Of a stretch of DNA of 64,000 nucleotides, positions 29,808 to 57,010 are shown one piece after another. Numbering within the stretch: position 1 is the first letter of the stretch; every line of letters starts with the position of its first letter. Below the pieces are notes generated by a model. That model made no database searches and was not told the origin of the DNA. It was given only the letters and a program-made list of their open reading frames with translations. This DNA is from Escherichia coli. GTDB taxonomy: Bacteria; Pseudomonadota; Gammaproteobacteria; Enterobacterales; Enterobacteriaceae. Both the position numbers and the translations under genes were made by a program. The stretch lies in NCBI RefSeq assembly GCF_041886205.1, contig NZ_CP169029.1. The stretch is one strand, 5' to 3'.

Positions 29808-29838
29808 AGAAACGTTAACACACCTTTAAACAAGACAA

Positions 29839-41824: not shown

Positions 41825-43507
41825 ATGGTTACCTGGACCCAAATGTATATGCCAATGGGAGGACTGGGGCTATCCGCTCTGGTCGCCCTGATCCCGATAA
41901 TATTCTTCTTCGTTGCACTCGCGGTATTACGTCTGAAAGGACATGTCGCTGGAGCAATAACCCTTATATTATCTATCCTGATTGCAATATTCGCCTTTAA
42001 AATGCCGATTGATATGGCATTTGCTGCTGCGGGCTATGGCTTTATTTATGGATTATGGCCAATTGCGTGGATTATTGTCGCGGCGGTGTTCCTGTATAAA
42101 TTAACCGTTGCCAGCGGGCAGTTCGATATTATCCGCAGCTCGGTTATCTCCATCACCGACGATCAGCGTTTGCAGGTGTTACTGATTGGTTTCTCCTTTG
42201 GTGCGTTGCTGGAAGGAGCGGCTGGCTTTGGTGCTCCGGTGGCGATTACCGGTGCGCTGCTGGTGGGCCTGGGCTTCAAACCGTTATACGCGGCGGGGTT
42301 GTGTCTGATTGCCAACACTGCGCCAGTGGCGTTTGGTGCGTTGGGCGTGCCGATTCTGGTCGCCGGTCAGGTAACGGGAATCGATCCGTTCCACATTGGC
42401 GCAATGGCGGGACGCCAGTTACCGTTCCTGTCGGTTCTTGTGCCGTTCTGGCTGGTAGCAATGATGGACGGCTGGAAAGGGGTGAAAGAGACGTGGCCAG
42501 CGGCGCTGGTTGCTGGGGGAAGCTTTGCTGTCACTCAGTTCTTTACCTCTAACTATATTGGTCCGGAACTGCCGGATATTACTTCGGCGCTGGTGAGTAT
42601 CGTCTCACTCGCTTTATTCCTTAAAGTCTGGCGGCCGAAAAATACCGAAACGGCAATCAGCATGGGGCAATCCGCAGGTGCGATGGTGGTAAATAAGCCA
42701 TCTTCTGGCGGTCCCGTGCCTTCAGAATATAGTCTGGGGCAAATCATTCGTGCGTGGTCACCGTTTTTAATCTTAACGGTGCTGGTCACCATCTGGACCA
42801 TGAAGCCGTTTAAAGCGTTATTTGCTCCGGGCGGCGCGTTTTATTCACTGGTGATTAATTTCCAGATCCCTCATTTGCATCAACAAGTGTTGAAAGCGGC
42901 ACCCATTGTCGCCCAACCAACGCCAATGGATGCGGTGTTTAAATTCGACCCTCTCTCGGCTGGCGGCACCGCTATTTTTATTGCGGCGATTATCTCTATC
43001 TCCATCCTCGGTGTTGGGATCAAGAAAGGTATTGGCGTCTTTGCCGAAACGCTAATTAGCTTGAAGTGGCCGATACTGTCGATTGGCATGGTGCTGGCGT
43101 TCGCCTTCGTCACCAACTATTCTGGCATGTCCACCACGCTGGCGCTGGTACTGGCAGGTACAGGCGTGATGTTCCCGTTCTTCTCACCGTTTCTCGGCTG
43201 GCTGGGCGTATTCCTTACCGGCTCGGACACCTCCTCTAACGCCCTGTTTGGTTCACTGCAATCGACCACGGCGCAGCAAATCAACGTCTCTGACACTCTG
43301 CTGGTGGCAGCAAATACCAGCGGCGGCGTAACTGGCAAGATGATCTCCCCGCAATCTATCGCCGTGGCCTGCGCCGCGACGGGCATGGTGGGCCGGGAAT
43401 CTGAACTGTTCCGCTACACCGTGAAGCACAGTCTGATTTTTGCCAGCGTTATCGGCATTATCACGCTGTTGCAGGCGTATGTGTTTACCGGGATGTTGGT
43501 AAGTTAA
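41825..43507 (+). CDS. glcA: Glycolate/lactate:H+ permease GlcA (560 aa)
   Basis: [39 protein letters not shown]... LctP family. Confidence 0.96.
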
Positions 43508-43533
43508 TAGAATAGTTATGCCTGACGTTAATA

Positions 43534-43570
43534 CAAACCCAGTCTATCAGACTGGGTTTGTTAGTATTTC
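43534..43570 (+). terminator. Rho-independent terminator of glcA
   Basis: Perfect 12-bp stem CAAACCCAGTCT (43534-43545), loop ATC, AGACTGGGTTTG (43549-43560), followed by a T-rich tail TTAGTATTT. Confidence 0.65.
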
Positions 43571-43815
43571 CGATATCAGACAGGGAAAATGCCTGGTCAG
43601 AAATGGGGCGTAATTCGGTTTTCTCAAAAAAGTAAAAAACGCCTTGTGGGCGGGGGATTATCTTACGACATGTAATTTGTTCCATACTTTTAAACTCCCC
43701 ATTGTTATGAAGTAAAGGCGTTATCTTTTTATCCGTTCAAACTTTAGCTCAAATTTGTAGCATGCAGATTCCGGTATTTTTCCTGATACCAGAAAAAAGT
43801 CACTGGAGGAAAGGT

Positions 43816-43831
43816 TGTGATAAAAATCACA
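43816..43831. promoter_or_regulatory. Candidate CRP-cAMP site (TGTGA-N6-TCACA) upstream of the jet operon
   Basis: TGTGATAAAAATCACA has both consensus half-sites perfect with the correct 6-nt spacer. Its centre lies about 96 nt upstream of the jetA ATG. Confidence 0.45.
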
Positions 43832-43919
43832 AATTAAGTCAGGTTACTGGAGATAAAGTCTGCAACAGAGAATTATCGTAGTCTGTGTACCTCAACCAGT
43901 ATTTTAAAGGCTCTGTTAC

Positions 43920-45416
43920 ATGGAAGAAAACACAAGGCAGCGTACAGAAAATTATATTTCAGCAAAAAACCAGCATCCCGCCTGGATACTCCTTGCCACT
44001 CGCCGTGCTCCACTGGTATTGAGTTGCCTGAAAACGCTTTTTGAAAAATCACATGATGGCATTCCCCTTGAGGAAGCTATTCAGTCTCTTTCCAGTATTC
44101 TCATTGAGCATGTGAGTCAGGAACAGTATGACATTAATCAGGACAATCCATTTCTTCAGGCCAGTCGTGAACTGCGGGAGTGGATTAAACGCCGTTTAAT
44201 TGTCGAACGGGATGGCCGTATTTTTGCTACCGATGCGCTTGAGGTCGCGATTACGTTTGTAGAGTCTCTGGATAATCGTTTTATGACCTCTACGGCTTCC
44301 CGTTTGTCCACCGTTCAGCGAGAAATTGAAAACCTGGAAACACGGCTTAATCCTAACCCGGCAAACCGGGTTGCAACCTTACGTCGTCGTATTTCTGAAC
44401 TGGAACGCGAACTACAGGAGGCAGAAGCCGGGCATATTGAGGTGCTGGAAACGCACCAGGCGGTTGAGCATATTCGTGAGGTCTACAATTTAGCTTCCAG
44501 CCTGCGGGCTGACTTTCGTCGTGTTGAAGACTCCTGGCGTGAGGCTGACCGCGCTCTTCGCCAATCCATTATTGGTGAGCAATATCATCGCGGCGATATA
44601 GTAGAACGCCTGCTCAACGATCAGGACGCGCTGCTTAATACGCCGGAAGGAAGAGTTTTCGACAGCTTTCAGCAACAGCTCCGTCAATCTTCTGAACTTA
44701 AAGCGATGAGTGAACGATTACGTGTGATCCTTAGCCATCCTTCTGCTTCTGATGCGCTTAACCGTCTACAGCGTCACGATCTGCGCTGGCTGGTTAAACG
44801 TCTGGTCGATGAATCGCAAACTGTCCTCCAGGCTCGCGCCCGTAGCGAGCGTGATGTCCGTGGTTTCATGAAAACCGGTCTTGCTGCTGAACATCATCGT
44901 GTTGGTCATTTGCTTAATGAGTTTCTGAATCTGGCGTTAAAACTCGACTGGCAGCGCCAGATGATTCGTAAACAAGAGGTGCCGCTACCTGCCGTTGGTG
45001 TGGCGGTAACAGGCATCCCCGCTATTGAACGTTTACGTTTTAAAGAGGTGGATGATGAAGCAGAGCAGACGTTGGATCTCAGTAATCATGCGGCGGATTT
45101 AACGCAGATTGGCGATGATTTCTGGGATGCCTTCAATGGCCTCGATCGTGAGGTGTTGATTCAGCAGACGTTGCAGCTTCTTGCAAAAGAAAATCGCCCC
45201 GTTGGCCTGGCTGAACTGGCGGCGCTGTTACCCCCGGCTCACGATCTCGAAACATTCGCCGTCTGGATTGGTATGGCAAGAGAAGCGGGTATTGAGGTTA
45301 TTGATTCACAGCGTGAATTTGCAGAGCTTAGTGATGGGGAAGGTCGCCGCTGGCGATTTAATCTGCCCACCACCGGTCTGGAAAGTCAGGCATTAATGGA
45401 TATCGATTGGGAGTAA
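43920..45416 (+). CDS. jetA: Wadjet JetA (DUF3375-like, kleisin-like subunit, 498 aa)
   Basis: First gene of a 4-gene coupled operon. Helical protein of matching size, in the position of JetA/MksF-like DUF3375 proteins. Confidence 0.8.
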   Translation: MEENTRQRTENYISAKNQHPAWILLATRRAPLVLSCLKTLFEKSHDGIPLEEAIQSLSSILIEHVSQEQYDINQDNPFLQASRELREWIKRRLIVERDGRIFATDALEVAITFVESLDNRFMTSTASRLSTVQREIENLETRLNPNPANRVATLRRRISELERELQEAEAGHIEVLETHQAVEHIREVYNLASSLRADFRRVEDSWREADRALRQSIIGEQYHRGDIVERLLNDQDALLNTPEGRVFDSFQQQLRQSSELKAMSERLRVILSHPSASDALNRLQRHDLRWLVKRLVDESQTVLQARARSERDVRGFMKTGLAAEHHRVGHLLNEFLNLALKLDWQRQMIRKQEVPLPAVGVAVTGIPAIERLRFKEVDDEAEQTLDLSNHAADLTQIGDDFWDAFNGLDREVLIQQTLQLLAKENRPVGLAELAALLPPAHDLETFAVWIGMAREAGIEVIDSQREFAELSDGEGRRWRFNLPTTGLESQALMDIDWE

Positions 45417-45421
45417 CAGGT

Positions 45422-46171
45422 ATGACGGGCTTTTTTGACAGGCTGATTAACCGGAGCGTTACCGCAAATGCAGGCTGTGAACCAGAACCATCGGATGAGG
45501 AGGTTACCGATGAGTCGGTTGAAGAAAGTTTGGCCAGTAGTGAAACGCGGACGCTAAAAAAAATACGTGAAGCGACTCAGGAATTGCTCAAATACGGCCT
45601 GCTGGAAGAGGCCAGTAAGCCCAATCTGTACCGCATCGTACTGAGCCATCCTGAAGAGGTTACTCGTATTCTGGAGCCTCTCGATCTGGATATCGGCATT
45701 GATGAGATCCGTGGCCTGCTGTATGTCAAAGTCAGGCTTGATGAAACGCCTGCGCAGGATGAATGGGCCCACCCTCTGGTGAGGCGGCAACGACTAAACC
45801 TGGAACAATCTTTATTAGTTGCCATACTGCGCCAACATTTTGTGGCCTGGGAGCAGGAAAGCGGAACCGGTGCCAGTCAGGCACAGATCGCCATCGATGA
45901 TCTTCTCCCTCAACTCCAGATTTATCTTGGCGACCCGGGCAGTGAATCAAAAGAACGCACCCGATTGCTTACCCTGCTGGATCAATTAAAGGGGCATGGG
46001 CTGGTGACGTCGCCGGATGCACATGAGCGGATCGTCATCCGTCCGATCATTGCTCATCTTGCCGATCCGATCAATCTTCAGGCATTACTGGCATGGCTGC
46101 GAGAGCAAATTGCCCAGCAAACCTCTCCAAATGACGCGCGAGAAAAGGATAGCAGCGAGGAGGACGTATGA
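45422..46171 (+). CDS. jetB: Wadjet JetB (DUF4194-like, MksE/KITE-like subunit, 249 aa)
   Basis: Sits in ORF 45407..46171. ATG at 45422, 8 nt after a GGAG. Acidic N- and C-terminal tails (EPEPSDEEVTDESVEESL, DSSEEDV). Ends in an ATGA overlap with jetC. Confidence 0.8.
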   Translation: MTGFFDRLINRSVTANAGCEPEPSDEEVTDESVEESLASSETRTLKKIREATQELLKYGLLEEASKPNLYRIVLSHPEEVTRILEPLDLDIGIDEIRGLLYVKVRLDETPAQDEWAHPLVRRQRLNLEQSLLVAILRQHFVAWEQESGTGASQAQIAIDDLLPQLQIYLGDPGSESKERTRLLTLLDQLKGHGLVTSPDAHERIVIRPIIAHLADPINLQALLAWLREQIAQQTSPNDAREKDSSEEDV

Positions 46172-49100
46172 ATCAGGTATCTGGCCTGGCTGGAAAGGAA
46201 TCTTTCATTCTTACCCGTATTGAGTTGTTCAACTGGGGCGGTTTTCATGGATTGCATCAGGCAGCAATCCATCAGGATGGTACCGCCGTTATTGGCCCAA
46301 CCGGGAGCGGAAAAACAACGTTGGTCGATGCCCTGATGACTCTGCTTTGTGCCAATCCTCGCTACAATCTGGCCTCAACTGGCGGGCATGAAAGCGACAG
46401 GGATCTTATCTCTTACGTCCGCGGCGTATCCGGTCCTGGCGATGGCGGTGAAGGGCAATCGCATATTGCCAGACCAGGTAAAACCGTGACAGGTATTGCT
46501 GCTACGCTGGAGCGCGAAGGAAAACAGGTCCGTCTGGGGGCGTTATTGTGGTTTGATTCCACCAGTTCCAGCGTGACGGATATGAAAAGGCTCTGGCTGT
46601 TCAGCGATAATCCCGGGCAGACGCTGGAGCATTGGCTAAACGTTTACCATGAGGGAGGTACACGTTTGCTCCGACAGATGGAAAAAGAAGCCATCGGGCT
46701 CTGGACATACCCGAATAAAAAGCAGTATCTGGCGCGCCTGCGGGATTTCTTCGAGGTGGGGGAAAACGCGTTTACGTTGTTAAACCGGGCGGCAGGGTTA
46801 AAACAACTCAACAGTATTGATGAGATTTTTCGCGAGCTGGTGTTAGACGATCACTCCGCCTTTGATCGCGCGGCTGAAGTGGCCAATAGTTTTGATGGTC
46901 TGACTGAGATTCATCAGGAACTGGAAACCGCTCGCAAACAACAGCAGTCTTTACAACCTGTCGCCCTGAGCTGGGAGAAGTACCAAAAGCAAGAGCGTCA
47001 ACTGGCTGACTGGCAGACGCTGGAATCGCTGTTACCCCTCTGGTTTGCACAACAGGCAAACCACCTCTGGCGGGAAAAGATTAACCTTCTTAACGCAAGG
47101 CTCGCTGAGGCACAAACCAGCGAAGAACAGCTCCAGTCACAGCTTGATTTGCAAAAAAAGGTGGTTAGCGACTGTATGCAGCGTTATCTCCAGGTCGGCG
47201 GTGCCAATATTGATGAACTGAACGAGCGTATCAAGGACTGGCAAAAAACGCTCGGCAGTCGAGAGGCATTGGCGCGTCAATATCAACAGCTGACCCGTAA
47301 CCTTGGATTGCCGTCTGATCTGATCCAACCACAGCTGGAGGCGAATCAGCATGAAGCCGCGGCCCTATGTGAGCAGATCGCCGTTGATATAAAGTTGAAA
47401 CAGGAAGAAGCGTATCAAAAAGGTGCGCTTAGCCATCACATTACCGAAGAGCTTCGGGAACGGGAAAATGAACGCGCCGAGATCGCGCGTCGTCCGGATT
47501 CTAACCTTCCCGCACATTATCAGGCGTTTCGTAGCGAGCTGGCAAAAGCGTTGAACGTGGATGAGTCTGAACTGCCTTTCGTCGCTGAACTGATACAGGT
47601 TAAACCGGAAGAGGCGCAATGGCGCGGTGCGATTGAGCGTGCTGTCGGGAGTAACAGGCTGCGTATTCTGGTTGCGCCTGAATCGGCACAGGAAGCGCTG
47701 CGCTGGGTAAATCAGCGCAACAACCGTCTGCATGTGCGGCTACTGGAGGTCAAATTACCGCACTCTCCCGCCCGGTTCTTCGACGATGGCTTTACCCGCA
47801 AGCTGTTGTGGAAAGATCATCCGTGGCGAGAGGCCGTCAAAGCATTACTGGCCGAAAGCGACAGGCATTGTGTTGACAGCCCTGAACAACTGCGTGACAC
47901 GCCTCATGCTATGACGGTGCAGGGATTAATGTCTGGTAAACAGCGTTTTTATGACAAGCATGATCAGAAACGCCTTGATGAAGACTGGCTGACGGGATTC
48001 GATAACCGCGATCGCCTGAACTTCCTTGCTAAAGAAATTACCACGCTTCAGGAGCAGGTTAAAACCGCAAACGCGGCATTTGAGTTTGCGAAAGGCGAGG
48101 TGGGGATTTTGCAAAATCAGGCTGCTTCCTTCCAGAAAATAGAACAAATTGATTTCGATAGCATCGATGTTCCCGGCGCGAAGAGCCAACTGGACGCGCT
48201 CAGGGAGCGGCTGGAAAATCTGACCCGCCCGGATTCTGACGCCAGTGTAGCGAAAGCAAAACTTGATGAGGCTCAAACGGTTGAATCTGAACTCGATAAG
48301 CAGCTCAGAGCTGCCAATAAAGTCACTAACGTGCTGGATACAGAACTCACATCAGCCCGTGCCGCGGAACGTAAGGCCCAGCAAACTGCACAACAAGGTA
48401 TGAAGGAAGAAGAGCGAGAGTTGTGCGCGTCACATTTTCCAGTGGTGACTTTGGAGCAATTGCCTGACATTCGCGATTTAGAACGTCAACATGAGCGGGG
48501 AATTCAGCATGAAATTGAAAGAGTTAAAGCTGAACTACATCGACTGAACATTGAGTTGACCAAACGTATGTCTGAAGCCAAACGTGTGGATACCGGGGCG
48601 CTCGTTGAGGCAGGGACTGATTTGGACGATATTACTGTTTATTTACAGCGTTTGCAGGAACTGACCGAAGAAGCCCTGCCGGAAAAGCTCAATCGCTTCC
48701 TTGATTATCTTAACCGTTCATCCGATGACGGCGTAACACAACTGCTTAGCCATATTGAGCATGAGGTGCTGGTGATTGAGGAGCGCCTCAATGAACTCAA
48801 TGAAACTATGTTCAGGGTTGATTTTCAGCCGTATCGCTACCTGCGTCTGGATACCAAAAAAGTTGTCCATGAAAGCCTGCGCACGCTTGAAAAAGCACAG
48901 CGTCAGCTAAATGCCGCCCGATTTGTTGATGATAATGGCGAGAGCCATTATAAGGCTTTGCAGATACTGGTGGCGCAATTGCGGGATGCTTGTGAACGAA
49001 ACCGTACCCTGGGAGCAAAAGCGCTACTGGATCCCCGTTTTCGACTGGAGTTCGCCGTATCGGTGATGGATCGTCAGAGCGGAAATGTGATTGAGTCTCG

Positions 49101-49455
49101 TACCGGCTCACAGGGTGGTAGCGGTGGAGAAAAAGAGATTATCGCTTCTTACGTGTTAACAGCTTCACTTAGCTACGCACTTTGTCCTGCGGGGAGCCGT
49201 TATCCGCTTTTCGGTACCATTATCCTTGATGAAGCCTTCTCCCGCAGTTCTCATGCGGTGGCGGGTAGGATCATTGCCGCGCTTAGAGAATTTGGCTTAC
49301 ATGCAGTATTTATCACCCCCAATAAGGAAATGCGCCTGCTGCGTGACCATACTCGTTCGGCGATTGTTGTCCACCGGCGCGGTCAGAATTCCAATATGGC
49401 TTCTCTGAGCTGGGAAGAGCTTGAACGACACTACCAGCGACGGGGGAACGCGTAG
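46168..49455 (+). CDS. jetC: Wadjet JetC (SMC/MukB-like ABC ATPase, 1095 aa)
   Basis: Walker A GPTGSGKTT (nt 46294-46320). About 800 aa of E/Q/L/R-rich coiled coil. C-terminal signature-like GGSGGEKE and Walker B TIILDEAF. Confidence 0.88.
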   Translation: MNQVSGLAGKESFILTRIELFNWGGFHGLHQAAIHQDGTAVIGPTGSGKTTLVDALMTLLCANPRYNLASTGGHESDRDLISYVRGVSGPGDGGEGQSHIARPGKTVTGIAATLEREGKQVRLGALLWFDSTSSSVTDMKRLWLFSDNPGQTLEHWLNVYHEGGTRLLRQMEKEAIGLWTYPNKKQYLARLRDFFEVGENAFTLLNRAAGLKQLNSIDEIFRELVLDDHSAFDRAAEVANSFDGLTEIHQELETARKQQQSLQPVALSWEKYQKQERQLADWQTLESLLPLWFAQQANHLWREKINLLNARLAEAQTSEEQLQSQLDLQKKVVSDCMQRYLQVGGANIDELNERIKDWQKTLGSREALARQYQQLTRNLGLPSDLIQPQLEANQHEAAALCEQIAVDIKLKQEEAYQKGALSHHITEELRERENERAEIARRPDSNLPAHYQAFRSELAKALNVDESELPFVAELIQVKPEEAQWRGAIERAVGSNRLRILVAPESAQEALRWVNQRNNRLHVRLLEVKLPHSPARFFDDGFTRKLLWKDHPWREAVKALLAESDRHCVDSPEQLRDTPHAMTVQGLMSGKQRFYDKHDQKRLDEDWLTGFDNRDRLNFLAKEITTLQEQVKTANAAFEFAKGEVGILQNQAASFQKIEQIDFDSIDVPGAKSQLDALRERLENLTRPDSDASVAKAKLDEAQTVESELDKQLRAANKVTNVLDTELTSARAAERKAQQTAQQGMKEEERELCASHFPVVTLEQLPDIRDLERQHERGIQHEIERVKAELHRLNIELTKRMSEAKRVDTGALVEAGTDLDDITVYLQRLQELTEEALPEKLNRFLDYLNRSSDDGVTQLLSHIEHEVLVIEERLNELNETMFRVDFQPYRYLRLDTKKVVHESLRTLEKAQRQLNAARFVDDNGESHYKALQILVAQLRDACERNRTLGAKALLDPRFRLEFAVSVMDRQSGNVIESRTGSQGGSGGEKEIIASYVLTASLSYALCPAGSRYPLFGTIILDEAFSRSSHAVAGRIIAALREFGLHAVFITPNKEMRLLRDHTRSAIVVHRRGQNSNMASLSWEELERHYQRRGNA

Positions 49456-49456
49456 G

Positions 49457-50605
49457 ATGTATTCCCCAGATGAATTGCGTGAAAAGCTTGCCCGGCAGTG
49501 GGATAGCGCAAAACTTCGGGCTGAACGCTTACTGTCCCCCGGTAACTGGCCGCTCTGCCTGCCTATTGGTAAACCTTCCACGAAAATATTTGCAGAGCAG
49601 ACTCAGCGCGTTTTGCAGCACGTACAGCGATGGAGGCAAGTTGCGGTTGGGCACGTGGAATGGGAAGCGGTGAGTTATCGGGCAAGTGATACATCAGTAT
49701 TAATGCCGTTGCGCTGGATTCTGAATAGCCCTTCTGAGTGGATCAACGCCGCTGCGGATCCGGTTGTGAGCCGGGAATTTCGCTTGCTGGAAGGAATTAT
49801 TGAACAAGTTAATCCCATTTTTCACCCGCTGTTGGTAAAGCATCGCTCTCTCTGGCGGCACAAAGATCCGCAGGGCGTCATCAGCGCCGCCACGCTGGCC
49901 TGCCGATTAGAGCCGGGCTGCGCAAAAGGGCTGCCGTTAAGATTGCTTTCCGGGCAAGGAGTGGATACCAAATTTATCGAGAATAATATTTCGTTATTAA
50001 CCCGACTGTTAGACGTGCGGTTTTCAGGAGAAGCCAGCGAGCAGGGATTAACAACTTTTCTTGATGCTTTTGATGAGTCCAGTCACTGGGTTTTAGTTGT
50101 ACCATTATCACCCGGCTTACTTCCTTTTAAAAAATGCCGGGTAACAACGGCGGAACTGGCAGAAACAACATTACCTGCGTCGCAAGTACTGGTGGTTGAA
50201 AATGAGCAGTGTCTGCATCATCTTCCAGCATTATCTGACACTATCGCGATTTTAGGCTGTGGCCTGGACGTGCAATGGCTATCCAGTTCTGTTCTGGATG
50301 AAAAACGCGTTGCTTATTGGGGGGACATGGATAGCTGGGGATTACTGATGCTGGCGAGAGCCAGGCGCTGTCGTCCGACGCTTGATGCCCTGCTCATGAA
50401 CCGTGAGTTGTTTGAGCAGTATGCCAGTCATAGCGCCGTTCCAGAACCGGTCATAGCGAAGGAAGCTGTACCTGATGGCTTGCTTAACGAAGAGGCCGAT
50501 TTTTATCGCTACTTAACCCGTTTACCGTGTGGTCGTCTGGAGCAGGAGTTTTTGCCAGTGGGGATTGCGGAAGAGGTGCTTCTCAGGTGGGGAAAAGAGA
50601 GTTAA
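49457..50605 (+). CDS. jetD: Wadjet JetD (DUF3322/DUF2220-like Toprim nuclease subunit, 382 aa)
   Basis: Sits in ORF 49421..50605. ATG at 49457, 1 nt after the jetC TAG. C-terminal Toprim signature: VVENEQ (around nt 50197) and YWGDMDSWG (DxD, around nt 50331-50351). Confidence 0.85.
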   Translation: MYSPDELREKLARQWDSAKLRAERLLSPGNWPLCLPIGKPSTKIFAEQTQRVLQHVQRWRQVAVGHVEWEAVSYRASDTSVLMPLRWILNSPSEWINAAADPVVSREFRLLEGIIEQVNPIFHPLLVKHRSLWRHKDPQGVISAATLACRLEPGCAKGLPLRLLSGQGVDTKFIENNISLLTRLLDVRFSGEASEQGLTTFLDAFDESSHWVLVVPLSPGLLPFKKCRVTTAELAETTLPASQVLVVENEQCLHHLPALSDTIAILGCGLDVQWLSSSVLDEKRVAYWGDMDSWGLLMLARARRCRPTLDALLMNRELFEQYASHSAVPEPVIAKEAVPDGLLNEEADFYRYLTRLPCGRLEQEFLPVGIAEEVLLRWGKES

Positions 50606-50963
50606 AAAAGTCATGCTTGCTCTGGAAGGTTATTTACGCGGTATTTTGTAGTGGTTGTTGCGAAAGTCTGCGTTGATGGTCCTGATACCTTACCGGGTAG
50701 AGGGACTTTCCATCAGTCAGTTTAGATACTGTGGCAACTGTCGCCTTTAGGTGGACAAATGCATAAATTATTAAACTATTAAATTTCTTGTTTTCAGGCA
50801 GCAGAGAGAAGGTATATCAGAGGGTACTGAGGTGTATAAACGTCACGAACATCCGTGAAAAGGCGAAAAAAACCAGCCAATAGATAATGCTTTGCAATGG
50901 CCAGAAATCTACCGTAGCCAGAAAGTGAAAAAGCCCCGCTTTGCAGCGAGGCCTTATGAATAG

Positions 50964-50985
50964 TGGTGCCGGACTCGGAATCGAA
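50964..50985 (-). other. tRNA-Phe 3'-end fragment: distal att repeat of a pheV/pheU-type genomic island
   Basis: The minus strand reads TTCGATTCCGAGTCCGGCACCA. The E. coli tRNA-Phe 3' end is TTCGATTCCGAGTCCGGGCACCA, so the fragment matches over all 22 nt and lacks one G of the 23-nt tRNA end. No upstream tRNA body is present. Confidence 0.8.
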
Positions 50986-51382
50986 GAATGCTTCTATCAT
51001 GTTGATATTATTTTATTTTGTTTGGTTTGGTGAAATATGTACCCTCTTTTGTACCCGCAGTCCCTTTTGATATCGAAAGGGAATCAAACTCGGGGTCAGG
51101 CTGAGAGCACAGAAGGAAAGTGCCTGGCTATTATATCGTTAATTCTGTCAATCAGCTCCAGCCTTTTGAAAGTGATGTGTGCAGATCCACCCTTCTTAAA
51201 GTATTTAATGATGAACATCTCATCTTCATAGCGTCCTTTACCCTGAACGGACTGTATGTGGTCATCCAGATTAATGGTGATATTCCCTCGGTTGTCGGGG
51301 ATCGGTTTACCGCTGAGCAGATGCAACATTCTTTCCAGGTCAGCCAGGCGATCTGCCTGCATTCCACTGATAAGATGAAATC

Positions 51383-52736
51383 TATGGTCACCCCCGTTTT
51401 TGCAACACTGATTTTTGATTAATGGTTGGCTTGCTTAAATCTATCCGGCGTCTCTGTGGGCAAGGATGCCCGCGCCCCGATGAGTTCCGCACCTGATAAT
51501 CCTAAAAATCCCCTCGGCTTCAGTGAGCCATTTCATCTGTTAGGTTTTTAATCAGGTCGATTTGCCGTTCATGTCATCAATAATCAGTCTTCGCAAAACC
51601 AGAAAGGTAACTTGTATCTTATTGTTTAAAATAAACTAATTGAGTTATATCAGCATCTATATCAGGCCTGATATTCTTTTTTCTGAGTAGTGATTGCCCA
51701 GGCAATTCGAGCCAGTTTATTTGCCAGAGCGCAGGTAACCACATTCGAATGCTTCTTGTTGAGTTGCTCCCGAACCCACTCAGCAAGTTTTCCATGCTTG
51801 CGTTCAAGTCGCATTATGAATGAGCGGGCACACTGAACCAGTAACCGGCGTAAATTTTTATCACCTCGCTTACTGATACCCAACAGAGTCGATTTTCCTC
51901 CAGTGCTATACTGCCGGGGAACAAGTCCTGTGGAAGCTGCAAAATCCCTGCTGCATGAGAACTGTTTCCCGTCACCAAGTTGCGACGATAGTAAGCTGGC
52001 AGTAATCGGACCAACACCAGGAATTGTCATAATGCGCTGAGCGGTATCATCAGCGTTGATTGACTGACTTAATTCTGATTCCAGCTCTGCTATTTGCTCA
52101 ACAAGGTAAAAGTAGTGGGTATGCAACCTCACCAAAAGGCGGCTCAGATATTCGGGGATTTCGTGTTCAGCCAACACGAGAGACAACCGTTTTATTACAG
52201 CATCACCTATCGGCAGGCTGATTCCAAATTCCAGCAAGAAACCGTGGATCTGGTTGGTTGTTTTCACTTTATCTCTGATGAGCGATTCTCTGACCCGGTG
52301 TAACGCCCTCATGGCCTGCTGGGTCTCAGTTCTTGGCTGGACAAAACGCATTGATGGTCGTGAAGCCGCTTCGCATATGGCTTCTGCATCAACAAAATCA
52401 TTCTTATTACTTTTGACAAACGGGCGAACGAACTGTGGAGAAATCAGCTTAGTTTCATGCCCAAAATCAGAGATACAGCGAGCCATAAAGTGTGCACCCG
52501 CACAGGCTTCCATTACAACAACTGAGGGCGGACATGTCGCCAGAAACTGCATCAGTTTAGTACGGGTAAATTTTTTACGCAGAAGAGCCTTACCAGACTT
52601 GTCTTGACAATGAATGTGGAAGGAGTGCTTTCCGAGATCGATACCAATAAGTGTGATGTTCTGCATGATGGTCTCTCCGTTAAAGGGATTTACCTTAACA
52701 GCGTACTGCTGTTAAGGTGGGGGTGACCATATCATT
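51383..52736 (-). mobile_element. IS110-family insertion sequence (~1.35 kb, IS1111-like layout with a long 3' non-coding end)
   Basis: Perfect 13-bp inverted repeats TATGGTCACCCCC (51383-51395) and GGGGGTGACCATA (52719-52731). ATC sits on both flanks (51380-82 and 52737-39). Single DEDD-type transposase ORF. Confidence 0.85.
51662..52666 (-). CDS. IS110-family DEDD transposase/recombinase (334 aa)
   Basis: N-terminal LIGIDLGKHSFH (RuvC-like DEDD). C-terminal IPGVGPITASLL...GLVPRQYSTGGKSTLLGISKRGDKNLRRLL, typical of IS110/IS1111 transposases. Confidence 0.9.
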   Translation of the reverse strand: MQNITLIGIDLGKHSFHIHCQDKSGKALLRKKFTRTKLMQFLATCPPSVVVMEACAGAHFMARCISDFGHETKLISPQFVRPFVKSNKNDFVDAEAICEAASRPSMRFVQPRTETQQAMRALHRVRESLIRDKVKTTNQIHGFLLEFGISLPIGDAVIKRLSLVLAEHEIPEYLSRLLVRLHTHYFYLVEQIAELESELSQSINADDTAQRIMTIPGVGPITASLLSSQLGDGKQFSCSRDFAASTGLVPRQYSTGGKSTLLGISKRGDKNLRRLLVQCARSFIMRLERKHGKLAEWVREQLNKKHSNVVTCALANKLARIAWAITTQKKEYQA

Positions 52737-53121
52737 ATCCCCACTGGTCCCATCTCACCAGATTGTTGACGATAATTTTACTGCCAAATTTACAGGGTGA
52801 GTTGGTTTTGTAATCCCAGCTCAGCCCTTTGAAGACGTTGATCACTCCCCGTTCAAACACTTCATCTTTGTTCTGGTGCAGTTGTTCAAATGTGCTCAGA
52901 ATGTTCGCTTCGCTGATTTCCGGAAAATTATCATATTCCAGTGACCTGGACCTGACTGAGGTGGAGCAGATAACGTCCGTATTCTCGTTGACCACTTCCG
53001 GACGGGAGACTGTGATTTCAGACATAATCGATATTCCTTTTTGCAGATAAATGAAAACGCCAGCCGTGTTCAGGCTGGCGTCAGTGGAATGAAGTCTGGT
53101 GAGTGAGATGATGAGTGAGAC

Positions 53122-53319
53122 TCACCGGTTCTGGTGCTGAAGCTGCAGTTGGCGCAGGGTACGGATATCCTCTCTGGCCTGTTCGATACAGGGCAACAGT
53201 GCTGCTGAATCCGTTTTATCCTCATTGTTGTCAAAGATAATTCCCGATTCGCAGTCGATATTGTCCTGCAGCCACGCAATCAGAATATCCAGCGCTGTTT
53301 CCGTGGTTAATGATTTCAT
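53122..53319 (-). CDS. DUF957-like small island protein (65 aa)
   Basis: Sits in ORF 53122..53364. Start MKSLTTETALDILIAWLQDNIDCESGIIFDNNEDK at 53319. Common at the end of CP4-type islands. Confidence 0.65.
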   Translation of the reverse strand: MKSLTTETALDILIAWLQDNIDCESGIIFDNNEDKTDSAALLPCIEQAREDIRTLRQLQLQHQNR

Positions 53320-53330
53320 GTTGTTTCTGG

Positions 53331-53819
53331 TTACCAGTCGAAAGTGGGTAAACCCGGCAGGCATTCAGCGCTGGCATCCAGATGAATGAGACTGACGCCA
53401 TAACGTCGGGTAAGTGTGACAACCAGACGGCGGAACGTTTTTGACAGCCCCAGGCGTTTAAGCCGCAGAACCGGGTATGACCACGCATCGGTACGTAACA
53501 GATATCCGCTACCTGTGAAATGAATCCATTCTGATTCGCCGGTGTCATTCGTCTGATGTGACAGCGAGTACAGCCAGGCGTTGTCCTTTGCAGTGATATG
53601 CGCGGTACTGCAGCGTATGCCGGTCAGGGCAGCAAATGGTGGCGTGCAGTCTGTTGAGACCCGGTCAGATTCATCAACAACACGAAGGGAGTGGCCATTG
53701 TCGCAGACCACGTTAATCAGTTCAGCGAGATTAACACCATCGACGTCAACGACAATTCGTCCCATGTTCAGCGCCTGCACGTTAACGCTGTCTGCTTCCA
53801 GCGTCAGAGTCAGTTTCAT
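53331..53819 (-). CDS. YeeW-like island protein (162 aa)
   Basis: Lies immediately downstream of and overlapping the CbtA-like toxin gene, where yeeW homologs sit in CP4-44-type islands. Confidence 0.65.
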
Positions 53820-54193
53820 TGTTTCGCCTCCGGATGCTTCCCCTGGGTAATGTTATTTACCGTTCTGTAATTGTCGCGGGTCATCAGGCCGGTCGCCCTG
53901 CGAGCCCGGAGGATATCGATGCTGTTTATTAACTGAGAACGGGTACAGGCACTGAATTCCGGCTGGTCGGTACGCACCAGTGCGTATTTTTCAACAAGAA
54001 AGTTCACTGCATCGCACAGTGAAATGCCAGCTTCAATATGCTGCTCAATCACACATTCATCGGCAAACGGTGTGTCATTCAGTGTGAGGCCATAATGCTG
54101 GTCCAGCAGTCGGATGAGCAGTGTCTGCCAGATGGTGACGGGAGACGGGCAGCGAGATACCTCCCGTACATGTGTGTCGGATAATGTTTTCAT
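53816..54193 (-). CDS. CbtA/YkfI/YpjF-family type IV toxin (125 aa)
   Basis: Sits in ORF 53816..54337. Start [45 protein letters not shown] at 54193. Confidence 0.85.
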
Positions 54194-54239
54194 CTTAAGT
54201 TCTCTGTAACTGGTAGTGCTAAAGGTGAGAGCTTCGGGG

Positions 54240-54614
54240 TTATGAGGTGGTTGCGGGTGTCTGTGCCGGATAAACAGCCAGATAAACGTAACCACAGGAG
54301 CCGAGGGTGTCGGCTTCGCAGGTCTGCCCTTTTGCATACAGCGTGACGGTATGCTGATTTCGGGGATTCAGTTCACCGCTGGTGAGCATGAGCTCCAGTT
54401 GTTTCATCAGCAGCGGAAAGGCCTGGTCCAGATGGTATGCATCTGCGTCGCTGAAGCGGCCTCTGATACCGGCGCGGTCGGCAAGGTAATGCAGGCGGTT
54501 ACCCTCCTGCACCAGACGGGCACCAAAACAGGGCCTCACTGTGCAGGGAAGCCCCCACCAGGGGCGGTCGTGATTGTCGTCGGGATGAGTTATCCCGGAG
54601 AGTTTGTCTGACAC
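54240..54614 (-). CDS. CbeA/YeeU-family type IV antitoxin (124 aa)
   Basis: [49 protein letters not shown]... recognised as the YeeU/YfjZ/YafW family. Lies directly upstream of the toxin. Confidence 0.88.
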
Positions 54615-54776
54615 GATAAAATCCTCTCTGAAAAGTGGTTAAGAATGGTTTAACGATGACAGGTCAGCCGGCGCGCTGACCGGTTTCGGTGAAGATGTAT
54701 GCATTGACAAGAATGGCCTCATCCACAGCGGCGTCTGAGTCCATCTGGTCGTACTCGTTTTCCGGGTGACGGAACA

Positions 54777-54998
54777 TCAGTTCAGGGTGACGCTCATCAG
54801 CCGGACATACGGGCCAAAACTGTCCTTATGGCGTTCAGCAAACACGGCCAGCACACCGGGAATATCCTGCACTTCACGACCGGTATACGCTTCAGTGCTG
54901 CCGTGCCAGCGGTATTTGCCGGTACAGAAAGGAAAAAGACGGGATGCCGGATGTTGTTGGTGAATACGCATGGCTTCACCACGGGTGATGATTTTCAT
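54777..54998 (-). CDS. YeeT/DUF987-family protein (73 aa)
   Basis: MKIITRGEAMRIHQQHPASRLFPFCTGKYRWHGS... recognised as the YeeT family. Confidence 0.8.
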   Translation of the reverse strand: MKIITRGEAMRIHQQHPASRLFPFCTGKYRWHGSTEAYTGREVQDIPGVLAVFAERHKDSFGPYVRLMSVTLN

Positions 54999-55060
54999 AG
55001 TGGGATACCTCTGAAGACAGAAGATAAAAGTGAAAACAGGTGTGATGTGGTTGTGACGGG

Positions 55061-55537
55061 TTAAAGCAGACCATGTTCGGCAAAGGAGAAAACCTGGTTG
55101 CCACCGACTATCAGATGGTCCGGCACCCGGATATCCACCAGGGCCAGTGCCTGTACCAGACGTTCGGTGATAAGCCGGTCTGCCTTACTGGGTGTGACTT
55201 CACCGGACGGGTGATTGTGTGCCAGCACCACGGCAGCGGCATTGTGATACAGGGCGCGTTTAATCACTTCCCGGGGATGGACTTCCGTGCGGTTGATGGT
55301 GCCGGTGAAGAGGGTTTCACCGGCAATCAGCTGATTCTGGTTGTTCAGATACAGCACCCGGAACTCTTCACGCTCCAGTCCCGCCATGTTCAGAATCAGC
55401 CATTCTCGTGCCGCACGGGTGGAGGTGAAGGCCACGCCGGGTTCATGAAGATGGCGGTCCAGGGTTTTCAGGGCCCGTTGAATGAGACTGCGCTCGCCGG
55501 GCGTCATTTCTCCGGGCAGAAAGGAAAGCTGCTGCAT
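55061..55537 (-). CDS. RadC-like JAB-domain protein (YeeS/YkfG/YfjY family, 158 aa)
   Basis: Sits in ORF 55061..55552. Start MQQLSFLPGEMTPGERSLIQRAL. JAMM motif HNHPSGEVTPSKAD. Confidence 0.85.
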   Translation of the reverse strand: MQQLSFLPGEMTPGERSLIQRALKTLDRHLHEPGVAFTSTRAAREWLILNMAGLEREEFRVLYLNNQNQLIAGETLFTGTINRTEVHPREVIKRALYHNAAAVVLAHNHPSGEVTPSKADRLITERLVQALALVDIRVPDHLIVGGNQVFSFAEHGLL

Positions 55538-55552
55538 TGTCCCTGCCTCCAT

Positions 55553-56038
55553 TCAGTCGATGATGCGCATAATGGCGCTGCATTCCGGATGCTGCAGGGC
55601 GTAATCCCGCAGCCGGTAATAATGGACCGTCATGGCATAACACTCCGTACGACAGGCGTGATGACTGTACGTCATCAGACAGGCAGCAATGCCGGCGGCT
55701 TCCGGGCTCATTTCAGCGCGGTTGCCGTTCATGGCATTGAACAGTACCCATGTTTCGTCATCATCGTCATCCGGTTCGGGGGCCATAAATGCCCCGCCGT
55801 TGTTCAGAGTGTACAGATTCCAGATACCACCGCAGTAGTCTTCGCACAGACGGTCCATCCAGCCGAAAACACGGGGCTCCAGGGTCACCCACTGTGGAAT
55901 GAGGCCAAAATGCTGCGGCCAGAAGCTGATGCGCTGTTCATCAGGGACTATGGTGGCAACCAACTGAGGCTGGTCATTCCCTGATGCAGCGGTTACGGAA
56001 ACAGAAGATGTGGTGGAATTATGTGAAATGGTTTTCAT
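55553..56038 (-). CDS. Antirestriction protein (KlcA/ArdB-like, YfjX/YafX family, 161 aa)
   Basis: Sequence and position (between the DUF932 and radC-like genes) match the antirestriction genes of CP4-type islands. Confidence 0.75.
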   Translation of the reverse strand: MKTISHNSTTSSVSVTAASGNDQPQLVATIVPDEQRISFWPQHFGLIPQWVTLEPRVFGWMDRLCEDYCGGIWNLYTLNNGGAFMAPEPDDDDDETWVLFNAMNGNRAEMSPEAAGIAACLMTYSHHACRTECYAMTVHYYRLRDYALQHPECSAIMRIID

Positions 56039-56092
56039 GAAATGACTCCTTAAAGGACAAATAAATGCGTGGTTTTCAGGGTAATGGCTGAA

Positions 56093-56911
56093 TCAGCGCA
56101 GGCTCTCCAGCAGGGTTTCCGCCATCACCCACAATGCGCGGTTGAGCTTAATGTCAGTGTCAATGCTGTGAATGGCACGGGTATGGATACGTTTTCCTTT
56201 AGCGCTGCGACCTGAAATTCCGCCTTTCAGCATATTCTCCTGAATGGTCTGATAAGCACTCCACAGGTCCTTACCGTAATCCTCCCGGCGTCGTGGCGTC
56301 AGAATGTCGGCGGTGGTGACGGGCTGATGTTCGTCACCATAACGGTAAGTCAGTGCCGCCTGTGCCAGCGCCTGGCGTGCCGGTGGCGGCAGAATCAGCG
56401 ACTGCATGGCATCACGCTTTTCCTCAATCCGGTCAAAAACCCCCACCACCTCGTAAGCCCCTTCAATGACTCTGTCCACCACATTTCCCCGGTGCGGAAC
56501 ACGCACTTCCCCCAGAGACTGACCACAGACGCATCCGTTCTGGCAGACGAACCTGAAGTAACCCGGCAGCATCTGGTAGCTGGAGGTACCGTCATGAGAG
56601 TTGAGCAGAATAATTTCAGGGACATGTTCTCCGTTTATCTCTCCGGCCCGCCGCAGACGCAGCATGTGTTTTGTGTATCCCCGGCGGCCCGGGTCGCGCA
56701 CACGGGTCTGGCAGGCGAAGAATGGCTGAAAGCCTTCCCGCTGCAGGCTTTCCAGTACGGTGATGGTGGGGATGTACGTATAGTTCTGGCTTCGGGACGT
56801 GTGTTTATCTTCCCCGAAAATCCCCGGCACATAGTGCATCAGTTCTTTGTGTGTCAGCGGACGGTCACGGCGTATCTGGTTCGCATAACCAAAACGACTG
56901 GCTAGTCGCAT
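56093..56911 (-). CDS. DUF932-family protein (YfjQ/YafZ-like, 272 aa)
   Basis: MRLASRFGYANQIRRDRPLTHKELMHYVPGIFGEDKHTSRS... recognised as the YfjQ family. Confidence 0.8.
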   Translation of the reverse strand: MRLASRFGYANQIRRDRPLTHKELMHYVPGIFGEDKHTSRSQNYTYIPTITVLESLQREGFQPFFACQTRVRDPGRRGYTKHMLRLRRAGEINGEHVPEIILLNSHDGTSSYQMLPGYFRFVCQNGCVCGQSLGEVRVPHRGNVVDRVIEGAYEVVGVFDRIEEKRDAMQSLILPPPARQALAQAALTYRYGDEHQPVTTADILTPRRREDYGKDLWSAYQTIQENMLKGGISGRSAKGKRIHTRAIHSIDTDIKLNRALWVMAETLLESLR

Positions 56912-57010
56912 AATTTGCTCCTTATCGGTGGTTAAGATTTACTGGTGTAATAAATGAAAAAGCCACGTCTCCCGGAGAAGACGCGGCCTGATGGGTGAAA
57001 TGAATGACGT

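What the first reader, a model, noticed from the sequence alone, without database searches (positions are those of the whole stretch)
43573..50985. The jet operon fills the glcA-to-pheV variable locus, outside the att repeat of the neighbouring island
**Seen in the sequence**
- A 22-nt fragment at 50964-50985 (minus strand) matches the tRNA-Phe 3' end apart from one missing G.
- It has the same polarity as the island genes to its right.

**Inference**
- The fragment is the distal att repeat of a CP4-44-like island integrated at a phe tRNA gene lying beyond the window.
- The jet operon lies between that repeat and the glcA terminator, so it is not cargo of that island.

**From memory**
- K-12 carries the yghD-yghJ (T2SS/sslE) genes between pheV and glcA. 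None of them is present here.

**Open question**
- Either the jet operon replaced that block, or it is an older tandem island whose own distal repeat has decayed. I found no second copy of the repeat in 43573-43919.
Basis: partly seen in the sequence, partly recalled or inferred. Interest (0 to 1): 0.55.

Follow-up and report, generated by a model that had tools for sequence, protein, structure and literature searches.

The report
Wadjet island remnant beside pheV
The anti-plasmid jetABCD operon between glcA and the 22-base tRNA-Phe repeat is the stranded remnant of an older island inserted at the pheV tRNA gene, and a second, unrelated CP4-44-like island later inserted next to it; this is ordinary genome-island biology at a known hotspot.

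Summary
Window 50964-50985 (minus strand) is the last 23 nt of tRNA-Phe minus one G, and it is the only copy in 64 kb (0 expected by chance).

- The island to its right recurs at 99.7% identity in strain ZYB39, where it abuts the type II secretion gene yghD instead of jet.
- Strains GF4-3 and FHI_NMBU_11 carry jet directly against an intact pheV, with no island.

So jet and the CP4-44-like island are independent.

The open question resolves towards an older tandem island.
- In Klebsiella grimontii, Pluralibacter and Cedecea, the same jet module has its own tRNA-Phe repeat about 145 bp to its left.
- In K. grimontii that repeat is preceded by the native pheV terminator flank.
- The window keeps a relic of that flank (43628-43654), but about 179 bp including the repeat are replaced by 6 bases.
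- No integrase remains.
- Jet is 85-95% identical across genera, while neighbouring speC is 77%. This indicates horizontal transfer to the same site.

The operon is intact and 98-99.6% identical in protein to the characterised E. coli GF4-3 JetABCD. The finding is sound but unsurprising.

The parts
41825..43507 (+). glcA (glycolate permease). Its last three codons (from about 43498) already belong to the jet-linked haplotype.
   Evidence: Pfam Lactate_perm. Homology to about 4,350 K-12-type genomes stops at 43497-43500. The GlcA C-terminus is identical (LVS*), but the codons are TTG GTA AGT versus TTA GTC TCG in K-12.
43533..43561 (+). glcA terminator hairpin of the jet-linked haplotype.
   Evidence: 13-pair stem followed by a T-rich tail. 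The interval 43501-43919 occurs in only 13 of 5,426 E. coli genomes, always at this locus.
43628..43654 (-). Relic of the native pheV 3' terminator flank, displaced to the left of jet.
   Evidence: 25 of 28 positions match the K-12/ZYB39 flank AAAAGCAAAAACCCGCCTTGTGGGCGGG. Score 39 versus 18.1 +/- 2.4 in shuffles, reached by 0 of 500. The same flank precedes the jet island's own att repeat in K. grimontii, and lies next to tRNA-Phe in E. bugandensis, Kosakonia and Enterobacter MGH24.
43655..43660 (.). Deletion joint. Six bases (GGATTA) stand where K. grimontii has about 179 nt, comprising the end of the flank, the 23-nt att repeat and a roughly 145-nt distal island arm.
   Evidence: Alignments of the window against L014, L015 and L020.
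43661..43919 (+). Left end of the jet module shared between genera, including the jetA upstream region.
   Evidence: 78-82% identity for 43661-43733 (L014, L015, L020), and 87-90% from 43729 onward in those three plus Enterobacter and Kluyvera; Kosakonia and Mangrovibacter align only from about 43795 and 43864.
43920..45416 (+). jetA (kleisin-like subunit, DUF3375).
   Evidence: Pfam E=3e-106. 496 of 498 residues identical to GF4-3 JetA.
45422..46171 (+). jetB (DUF4194). The mechanical ORF starts at a TTG at 45407.
   Evidence: Pfam. 244 of 249 residues identical to GF4-3.
46168..49455 (+). jetC (SMC-like ATPase, 1,095 aa, intact).
   Evidence: Pfam AAA_29 and SbcC_Walker_B. Walker A motif GPTGSGKT at residue 43. 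1081 of 1095 residues identical to GF4-3.
49457..50605 (+). jetD (DUF3322 plus Toprim nuclease domain). The mechanical ORF starts at 49421.
   Evidence: Pfam. PDB 8q72 JetD(E248A) matches at E=3e-257. 378 of 382 residues identical to GF4-3, and E248 is present.
50687..50778 (-). Relic resembling the 5' end of an abiEi gene that lies between jetD and tRNA-Phe in Kluyvera.
   Evidence: 83% identity to L021 18562-18652, E=6e-21. The Kluyvera ORF is Pfam AbiEi_3. The protein-level match is weak: 18 aa, E=0.007.
50804..50963 (-). tRNA-proximal arm of the jet block (the 'b' flank). It carries the terminator that serves pheV in island-free strains.
   Evidence: Hairpin 50955-50930 with 11 pairs on the minus strand. 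The arm directly abuts intact tRNA-Phe in MB53, GF4-3 and FHI_NMBU_11. About 190 other E. coli genomes have 80-86% versions beside pheV or a distal att, next to varied acquired DNA. The core is homologous to the Kosakonia jetD-to-tRNA arm.
50964..50985 (-). 22-nt att repeat (tRNA-Phe 3' end minus one G). It is the distal boundary of the CP4-44-like island.
50986..64000 (-). Distal 13 kb of a CP4-44-like island, continuing beyond the window. It contains a DUF4942 gene split by ISSfl8 (transposase 51662-52666), DUF5983, cbtA/cbeA, radC, an antirestriction gene, DUF932, irmA, an 840-aa ORF and Ag43.
   Evidence: Pfam. 99.7% identical to the ZYB39 island, where it adjoins yghD.

Best explanation
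**What it is.** Window 43655-50963 is the immobilised remnant of a small genomic island specific for the 3' end of the tRNA-Phe gene pheV. Its cargo is an intact type I Wadjet (JetABCD) anti-plasmid system.

**Steps shown by the sequence comparisons**
1. The island inserted between pheV and its native terminator flank. That pushed the flank to the left of jet, where a relic survives at 43628-43654.
2. About 179 bp were then lost at the left end, including the island's own distal att repeat.
3. Nothing recognisable as an integrase remains on the right. What is left there is an abiEi-like relic and a 160-bp tRNA-proximal arm that supplies the pheV terminator. The block is therefore fixed in place, as in strains GF4-3 and FHI_NMBU_11.
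4. In the window's lineage, a CP4-44-like island later integrated into pheV again. This duplicated the 22-nt core (50964-50985) and separated jet from the tRNA gene, producing a tandem array.

**Steps inferred**
- The jet-linked haplotype, which begins inside the last codons of glcA, is an alternative to the T2SS (yghD-sslE) haplotype. It is not a deletion derivative of it. It probably moves within E. coli by homologous recombination in the flanks.
- By near-identity to the GF4-3 complex, the encoded SMC-like JetABC motor would scan DNA by loop extrusion. JetD would then cleave small circular DNA (plasmids under about 100 kb).
For: **Independence from the neighbouring island**
- ZYB39 has the same island beside yghD.
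- GF4-3 and FHI_NMBU_11 have jet beside an intact pheV.
- MB53 has a jet deletion derivative beside an intact pheV.

**Island origin of jet**
- jet lies in the same orientation upstream of tRNA-Phe in four other genera. In Kosakonia and Enterobacter MGH24 that tRNA is followed by yqgA and speC, so it is the orthologous pheV. In Kluyvera and Mangrovibacter only the tRNA-Phe itself was seen.
- Pluralibacter, K. grimontii and Cedecea keep a tRNA-Phe att repeat about 145 nt left of the point where homology to the window begins.
- In K. grimontii that repeat is preceded by the native flank seen in K-12.
- The window retains 25 of 28 positions of that flank at 43628-43654, reached by 0 of 500 shuffles.
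- Integrase remnants lie at the tRNA-proximal end in Mangrovibacter, and downstream of jetD in E. bugandensis.

**Horizontal transfer**
- jet genes are 85-95% identical in nucleotides between genera, with third-codon-position identity of 0.75-0.78.
- Adjacent speC is 77% identical (third position 0.515), and yqgA is 68-72%.

**Rarity**
- 8 of 5,426 complete E. coli genomes have the full operon.
- 13 have the left intergenic region.
- 24 have the right intergenic region.

**Function**
- Pfam architecture.
- 98-99.6% protein identity to GF4-3 JetABCD, with the Walker A motif and JetD E248 intact.
- GF4-3 JetABCD activity is described in bioRxiv 10.1101/2022.10.04.510915.
Against: - The window has no integrase gene or fragment in either flank of jet (tblastn).
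- The window has no second att repeat. The island status of the E. coli copy therefore rests on comparison with other genera.
- The GC content of jet (0.49-0.53) is no different from the backbone.
- jet divergence between E. coli backgrounds (about 1.5% between the window and GF4-3) is similar to that of glcA (1.3%). The acquisition is therefore old, or the spread within E. coli is by homologous recombination. The direction of change relative to the T2SS haplotype is not established.
- In Kosakonia, Kluyvera and Enterobacter MGH24 the flank next to the tRNA also looks like the native terminator. The origin of the 'b' arm is therefore not proven.
- pheV and an integrase beyond position 64000 were not seen for the source genome itself.
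Confidence: 0.8

Rival explanations
1. jet is an ancient chromosomal resident of the region downstream of pheV. It was inherited vertically in Enterobacteriaceae and lost from most E. coli. It never was a mobile island.
For: - The position and orientation are the same in five genera.
- GC content matches the backbone.
- Kosakonia shows a type VI secretion (T6SS) VasL gene, then jet, then pheV. This mirrors E. coli strains that have a T6SS cluster, a truncated jetD and pheV.
- jet-positive E. coli have different yqgA alleles, which suggests long residence.
Against: - jet third-codon-position identity is 0.75-0.78, against 0.515 for the adjacent speC.
- tRNA-Phe att repeats lie to the left of jet in three genera.
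- Integrase remnants are present in two genera.
- The genes between jetD and the tRNA differ by genus: Fic, AbiEi, or a Schlafen/HATPase protein.
Confidence: 0.08
2. jet is simply an allelic replacement of the T2SS block. The whole segment from the end of glcA to pheV was imported by homologous recombination from a diverged relative, and this alone explains the locus without invoking any integration at the tRNA.
For: - The breakpoint lies inside glcA. The last three codons are synonymous but divergent.
- The interval 43501-43627 is found in no other E. coli genome.
- jet-positive strains fall in different backgrounds.
Against: - It does not explain the displaced native terminator relic at 43628-43654.
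- It does not explain the att-bounded copies in other genera.
- This reading is compatible with the best explanation as a later, within-species spreading step.
- No donor was found. The metagenome scan returned only one E. coli-like contig.
Confidence: 0.1
3. jet and the CP4-44-like genes are parts of one larger island whose outer repeat lies elsewhere.
For: They are adjacent, and both are accessory DNA at pheV.
Against: - The same island occurs without jet in ZYB39.
- jet occurs without any island in GF4-3 and FHI_NMBU_11.
- The 22-nt repeat separates the two blocks.
- No further repeat exists in the window.
Confidence: 0.02

Closest known systems
E. coli GF4-3 JetABCD (type I Wadjet / JET nuclease; PDB 8q72; Liu et al., bioRxiv 10.1101/2022.10.04.510915)
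   Same: - Same four-gene operon at the same chromosomal locus: glcA, jetABCD, pheV.
- Protein identity is 98.0-99.6% for the four subunits, and the catalytic residues are kept.
   Different: - In GF4-3 the operon abuts an intact pheV.
- In the window, a CP4-44-like island has been inserted between them, leaving the 22-nt repeat.
Defence hotspot #5 (yghD / tRNA-Phe / yqgA) of the E. coli pan-genome survey (Hochhauser et al. 2023, PMC10121019)
   Same: - Same integration site, pheV.
- That survey reports AbiE at this hotspot. This fits the abiEi-like relic in the window.
   Different: - That survey reports Wadjet mainly at hotspot #37.
- Hotspot #5 is defined there by the flanking genes yghD and yqgA. 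Here yghD is absent and glcA is the left neighbour.
Pathogenicity islands at pheV bounded by 23-bp imperfect repeats of the tRNA 3' end (e.g. LAA, PMC5539235)
   Same: An integrase lies next to pheV, an imperfect 23-bp direct repeat marks the far end, and yqgA and yghD are the flanking genes. The CP4-44-like island in the window follows this pattern.
   Different: The jet block has lost both its integrase and its distal repeat.
Tandem accretion of tRNA-integrated islands, and integrase-less cis-mobilisable elements (recalled from the literature on streptococcal ICEs; not re-read here)
   Same: - Arrays built by repeated integration at one att site.
- Older members are left without an integrase. 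Other E. coli examples at pheV are MRY15-117 and O103:H2 12009.
   Different: The window's jet block lacks the outer att site, so it could not be co-excised.

Membership tests
Type I Wadjet (JetABCD) | Four-gene operon: jetA (DUF3375), jetB (DUF4194), jetC (SMC-like ATPase with Walker A and B) and jetD (DUF3322 plus Toprim C-terminal domain). | tested here: met
   Pfam hits for all four ORFs. Walker A GPTGSGKT and JetD E248 are present.
Type I Wadjet (JetABCD) | Close sequence relationship to an experimentally characterised complex. | tested here: met
   PDB 8q72 JetD matches at E=3e-257. Identity to GF4-3 subunits is 98.0-99.6%.
Type I Wadjet (JetABCD) | ATP-dependent cleavage of small circular DNA (plasmid restriction). 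| not testable with these tools
   Shown for the GF4-3 homologue in the literature. Not assayed for this copy.
tRNA-integrated genomic island (applied to the jet block) | Lies at the 3' end of a tRNA gene. | tested here: met
   The block directly abuts intact tRNA-Phe in GF4-3, FHI_NMBU_11 and MB53, and in Kosakonia.
tRNA-integrated genomic island (applied to the jet block) | Bounded by direct repeats of the tRNA 3' end. | tested here: not met
   There is no repeat to the left of jet in the window. The repeat is present in the orthologous elements of K. grimontii, Pluralibacter and Cedecea. Relative to these, the window has a deletion of about 179 nt.
tRNA-integrated genomic island (applied to the jet block) | Encodes a tyrosine integrase next to the tRNA. 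| tested here: not met
   No integrase similarity in 50500-51100 or 43400-44000. Remnants exist in Mangrovibacter and E. bugandensis.
tRNA-integrated genomic island (applied to the jet block) | Sporadic distribution and evidence of horizontal transfer. | tested here: met
   8 of 5,426 genomes. jet is far less diverged between genera than the flanking speC and yqgA.
CP4-44-like island at pheV (the right-hand neighbour) | Characteristic gene set: Ag43, DUF932, antirestriction, radC, cbeA/cbtA, DUF5983, DUF4942. | tested here: met
   Pfam. RefSeq annotation of the 99.7%-identical ZYB39 island.
CP4-44-like island at pheV (the right-hand neighbour) | Distal att repeat, plus an integrase and pheV at the far end. 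| tested here: inconclusive
   The distal repeat is present. The far end lies beyond position 64000. It is present in the relative wlxctx60 as integrase, tRNA-Phe, yqgA. It was not reached within 96 kb in ZYB39.

The most novel reading that the evidence does not exclude
The jet module may be a hitch-hiking defence cassette of tRNA-Phe islands across Enterobacteriaceae.

- It would travel between genera bounded by att sites, using integrases of its own (now decayed) or of tandem neighbours.
- It would then be repeatedly 'domesticated' by loss of the distal att site. The window (E. coli) and Enterobacter MGH24 show different deletions, both starting at the displaced native terminator flank.
- A corollary can be tested. 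A resident nuclease that cuts small DNA circles sits at a hotspot where excised island circles integrate. Yet at least three CP4-44-like variants inserted beside it. Either such islands evade Wadjet, or they arrive as linear DNA.
Probability: 0.25. Interest if true: 0.45.

Novelty: new member of a known kind. Interest (0 to 1): 0.25.

Why it matters
- It gives the genomic context of the E. coli Wadjet system used for the structural and biochemical work on the GF4-3 JetABCD complex. That system is a rare (8 of 5,426 genomes), immobilised remnant of a pheV island, and an alternative to the T2SS/sslE haplotype.
- It shows how repeated integration at one tRNA gene builds tandem arrays in which older defence cargo becomes fixed.
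- Surveys that define this hotspot by yghD and yqgA may not capture this configuration, because yghD is absent here (inference).
- None of this changes current understanding of Wadjet or of tRNA-linked islands.

Tried and rejected
- **Degenerate tRNA-Phe repeat left of jet.** Local alignment over 43480-43960 found only 10-nt chance matches. A fuzzy search of the whole window allowing 3 errors found one copy only.
- **Integrase, YghD, VasL or Fic remnants.** tblastn in both intergenic regions gave nothing below E of about 0.4. An 18-aa AbiEi match reached E=0.007.
- **Composition.** It does not mark jet as foreign.
- **Plasmid carriage of the jet module.** No match in 72,556 plasmids.
- **Donor of the jet-linked glcA terminator.** One metagenome scan returned a single human-gut contig that is simply the same E. 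coli locus, at 99.94%.
- **Is the 'b' arm inside an att-bounded island in strain NT1F10?** No distal repeat was found within 48 kb, so the test is inconclusive.
- **Far end of the ZYB39 island.** Not reached after 96 kb.
- **Literature search for pheV + glcA + island.** No paper.
- **Apparent split of jetC in RefSeq annotations.** Considered as a pseudogene and rejected: the ORF is uninterrupted in the window and in GF4-3.
Full report
**1. The observation**

Window 50964-50985 is TGGTGCCGGACTCGGAATCGAA. On the minus strand this is the last 23 nt of E. coli tRNA-Phe with one G of the GGG run missing. It is unique in the window at up to three mismatches, with 0.00 matches expected from shuffles (fuzzy search). 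ARAGORN finds no tRNA gene in the window.

To its left lie glcB (39299-41470), glcA (41825-43507) and a four-gene operon with these Pfam families:
- jetA: DUF3375
- jetB: DUF4194
- jetC: AAA_29 plus SbcC_Walker_B
- jetD: DUF3322 plus JetD_C

To its right all ORFs are on the minus strand and form a CP4-44-like set:
- a DUF4942 gene split by an IS110-family element
- DUF5983, cbtA/cbeA and radC
- an antirestriction gene, DUF932 and IrmA
- an 840-aa ORF and Ag43

K-12 does carry yghD-yghJ between pheV and glcA. None of those genes is present here.

**2. The repeat belongs to the right-hand island, and jet does not**

Evidence on the island's far end:
- The window from 23000 to 51094 is 99.886% identical and colinear with E. 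coli wlxctx60, with only 2 mismatches across 43501-50963.
- In that genome the order is glcA, jetABCD, repeat, island, tyrosine integrase, tRNA-Phe, yqgA, speC.

Evidence that the island and jet are separate:
- The window's own island (50953-64000) is 99.7% identical to one in strain ZYB39. There it abuts yghD of an intact type II secretion cluster, through the same 22-nt repeat.
- GF4-3 and FHI_NMBU_11 have jetABCD directly against an intact pheV, with no island.
- MB53 has an internal jet deletion (window 44010-49586 missing), also against an intact pheV.
- Jet-positive genomes carry at least three different CP4-44-like variants: CX12, wlxctx60 and JNEC-KY202.

The one-G-short form of the repeat recurs in the distal repeats of CX12, ZYB39 and O103:H2 12009. 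It travels with this island family and is not local decay.

**3. Where the jet-specific DNA begins and ends**

On the left:
- About 4,350 K-12-type genomes match the window only up to 43497-43500.
- The encoded GlcA C-terminus is unchanged (…GMLVS*). The last three codons differ (TTG GTA AGT versus TTA GTC TCG), and the downstream sequence is unrelated apart from faint similarity over about 35 nt.
- The 419-bp glcA-jetA spacer exists in only 13 of 5,426 genomes, always at this locus.
- The jet-linked haplotype is therefore not a deletion derivative of the T2SS haplotype. It carries a diverged copy of the very end of glcA and its own terminator at 43533-43561.

On the right:
- The 358-bp jetD-to-repeat spacer is found complete in 24 genomes.

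The full operon is present in 8 genomes.

**4. Evidence that jet is itself an old pheV island**

(a) Same site in other genera. A search of species-representative genomes found the same operon at 85-95% nucleotide identity in Pluralibacter, Klebsiella grimontii, Kosakonia, Enterobacter, Cedecea, Kluyvera and Mangrovibacter. In four of them a tRNA-Phe gene lies 0.2-4 kb beyond jetD, in the same orientation. In Kosakonia and Enterobacter MGH24 it is followed by yqgA and speC, so it is the orthologous pheV.

(b) Horizontal transfer.

| Gene | Nucleotide identity, E. coli vs Kosakonia/Enterobacter | Third-codon-position identity |
|---|---|---|
| jetA | 90-91% | 0.76-0.78 |
| jetC | 88-89% | 0.75-0.77 |
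| speC (adjacent core gene) | 77% | 0.515 |
| yqgA (adjacent core gene) | 68-72% | not computed |

The operon has therefore moved between genera long after they diverged, yet it landed at the same tRNA.

(c) The distal repeat survives elsewhere. In Pluralibacter, K. grimontii and Cedecea a tRNA-Phe 3' repeat, TGGTGCC(C)GGACTCGGAATCATA, lies on the minus strand about 145 nt to the left of the point where homology to the window begins. That point is window 43661, at TCTTACGAC.

(d) The native flank has been displaced. In K. grimontii that repeat is preceded by AAAAGCAAAAACCCGCCTTGTGGGCGGGTTCTTTAAATAG. This is the native pheV terminator flank seen next to pheV in K-12 and E. bugandensis. The window keeps AAAAGTAAAAA-ACGCCTTGTGGGCGGG at 43628-43654: 25 of 28 positions, score 39 against 18 ± 2.4, reached by 0 of 500 shuffles. 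It is followed by six bases and then TCTTACGAC. Relative to K. grimontii, about 179 nt have been lost. These comprise the end of the flank, the repeat and the distal arm. That is why no second repeat can be found. Enterobacter MGH24 shows a different deletion starting at the same flank.

(e) Integrase remnants. Mangrovibacter has the first 50 codons of a P4-type integrase (78% identity) next to tRNA-Phe. E. bugandensis has a fragment downstream of jetD. The window has none.

(f) Mosaic spacer to the right of jetD:
- 50687-50778 resembles the 5' end of the abiEi gene that Kluyvera carries between jetD and tRNA-Phe.
- 50804-50963 is a flank ('b') with a strong minus-strand terminator at 50955-50930.
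- About 190 other E. coli genomes have 80-86% versions of 'b' beside pheV or beside a distal repeat. The neighbouring DNA includes integrase-bearing islands (NT1F10, MRY15-117), the LEE (O103:H2) and IS-rich DNA.
- O157:H7 TR01 has its last 64 nt at 100% identity between pheV and a P4-type integrase.
- Its core is homologous to the Kosakonia jetD-tRNA arm.

MRY15-117 and O103:H2 12009 show the same tandem layout as the window: an older element, then the 'b' arm, then a repeat, then a CP4-44-like island.

**5. Function**

The four proteins are 496/498, 244/249, 1081/1095 and 378/382 identical to those of GF4-3. The JetC Walker A motif and JetD E248 are intact. JetD matches PDB 8q72 at E=3e-257.

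GF4-3 JetABCD restricts circular DNA up to about 100 kb in vivo. [quoted passage not shown] By inference this copy does the same. That has not been tested.

**6. What remains uncertain**

- The far end of the window's island is outside the window.
- The direction of change between the jet and T2SS haplotypes is unresolved. So is whether jet spread within E. coli vertically or by recombination. Jet-positive strains have yqgA alleles differing by 30 of 708 positions. Jet itself differs by about 1.5% between the window and GF4-3, close to the 1.3% seen for glcA.
- The origin of the 'b' arm (island-borne, or a variant native flank) is not proven, because in three genera the tRNA-side flank looks native.
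- No donor for 43498-43627 was found.
- The module is not on any plasmid in PLSDB.

**7. Comparison with what is known, and verdict**

- pheV is a classic island site with 23-bp imperfect repeats, flanked by yqgA and yghD (PMC5539235).
- It is hotspot #5 of the E. coli defence-island survey. That survey lists Wadjet mainly at another hotspot (PMC10121019).
- The operon is the well-studied type I Wadjet.

The result is a tidy but ordinary case of tandem accretion at a tRNA hotspot, with an immobilised defence cargo.

Noticed in passing
window 46168-49455; L049 6169-9456; L002 and L003 23169-26456: RefSeq (PGAP) annotates jetC in GF4-3, CX12 and wlxctx60 as two fragments: a 156-nt 'ATP-binding protein, incomplete' and a 448-aa 'SbcC/MukB-like Walker B' protein. 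The ORF is in fact uninterrupted (1,095 aa, no stops) in the window and in GF4-3. This looks like an annotation artefact.
   Followed up: partly
window 50008-50985; L012 8101-9103; L013 7978-8981: Several E. coli genomes carry a T6SS cluster (tssB/C/K, tssE/J/G, VasL) joined to a truncated jetD starting at window position 50008. This is followed by the same 'b' flank and then pheV or a repeat. Kosakonia has T6SS VasL about 2 kb upstream of an intact jet operon at pheV. The history linking T6SS and jet at this locus was not worked out.
   Followed up: partly
L001 4903-6030 (equivalent to window 43920-44009 joined to 49587-50605): In MB53 and W444, a clean deletion of window 44010-49586 joins the 5' end of jetA to the 3' part of jetD. 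RefSeq annotates one CDS across the joint (L001 4903-6030), named 'JetD domain-containing protein'.
   Followed up: partly
window about 23430-32440 (by colinearity with L003 432-9439): Upstream of yghO and the glc operon, the relative wlxctx60 (and by colinearity the window) carries a cluster annotated as serine palmitoyltransferase (spt), acyl carrier protein, epimerase, fatty acyl-AMP ligase, LptF/LptG paralogues, YtfJ and an LPS biosynthesis protein. The same genes occur in CX12 and NT1F10. Not examined further.
   Followed up: no
window 51096-53025: The DUF4942 gene at the distal end of the CP4-44-like island is split into two fragments (51096-51362 and 52735-53025) by an ISSfl8-like IS110 element (transposase 51662-52666). 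The same insertion is present in ZYB39.
   Followed up: partly
window 50953-50963 and the flanks aligned: All versions of the sequence just downstream of tRNA-Phe share a motif of the form CTTAnGAAT(n)AG immediately after the tRNA end. This holds for the native flank, the 'b' flank and the arm next to P4-type integrases. Matches to islands in other contexts begin at 50953, not at 50964. The functional att core may therefore extend about 10 nt beyond the tRNA gene.
   Followed up: no
L017 9676-9715 and 18380-18417: In Enterobacter sp. MGH 24, the jet-Fic block is flanked by two direct copies of the roughly 40-nt native-type pheV terminator flank. One lies left of jet with no tRNA repeat, and one lies next to tRNA-Phe.
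   Followed up: no
L018 19546-19760: E. bugandensis has a truncated tRNA-Phe (the 3' half, about 49 nt) preceded by the native flank, plus a further 12-nt att-like fragment next to an integrase remnant. This points to several rounds of integration and decay there.
   Followed up: no
L055 (human gut metagenome contig, 12,819 nt): Positions 1-11537 match window 50468-38932 at 99.94%. The remaining 1.3 kb does not match the window upstream of 38932, which suggests a rearrangement or insertion near glcG/glcB in that strain.
   Followed up: no
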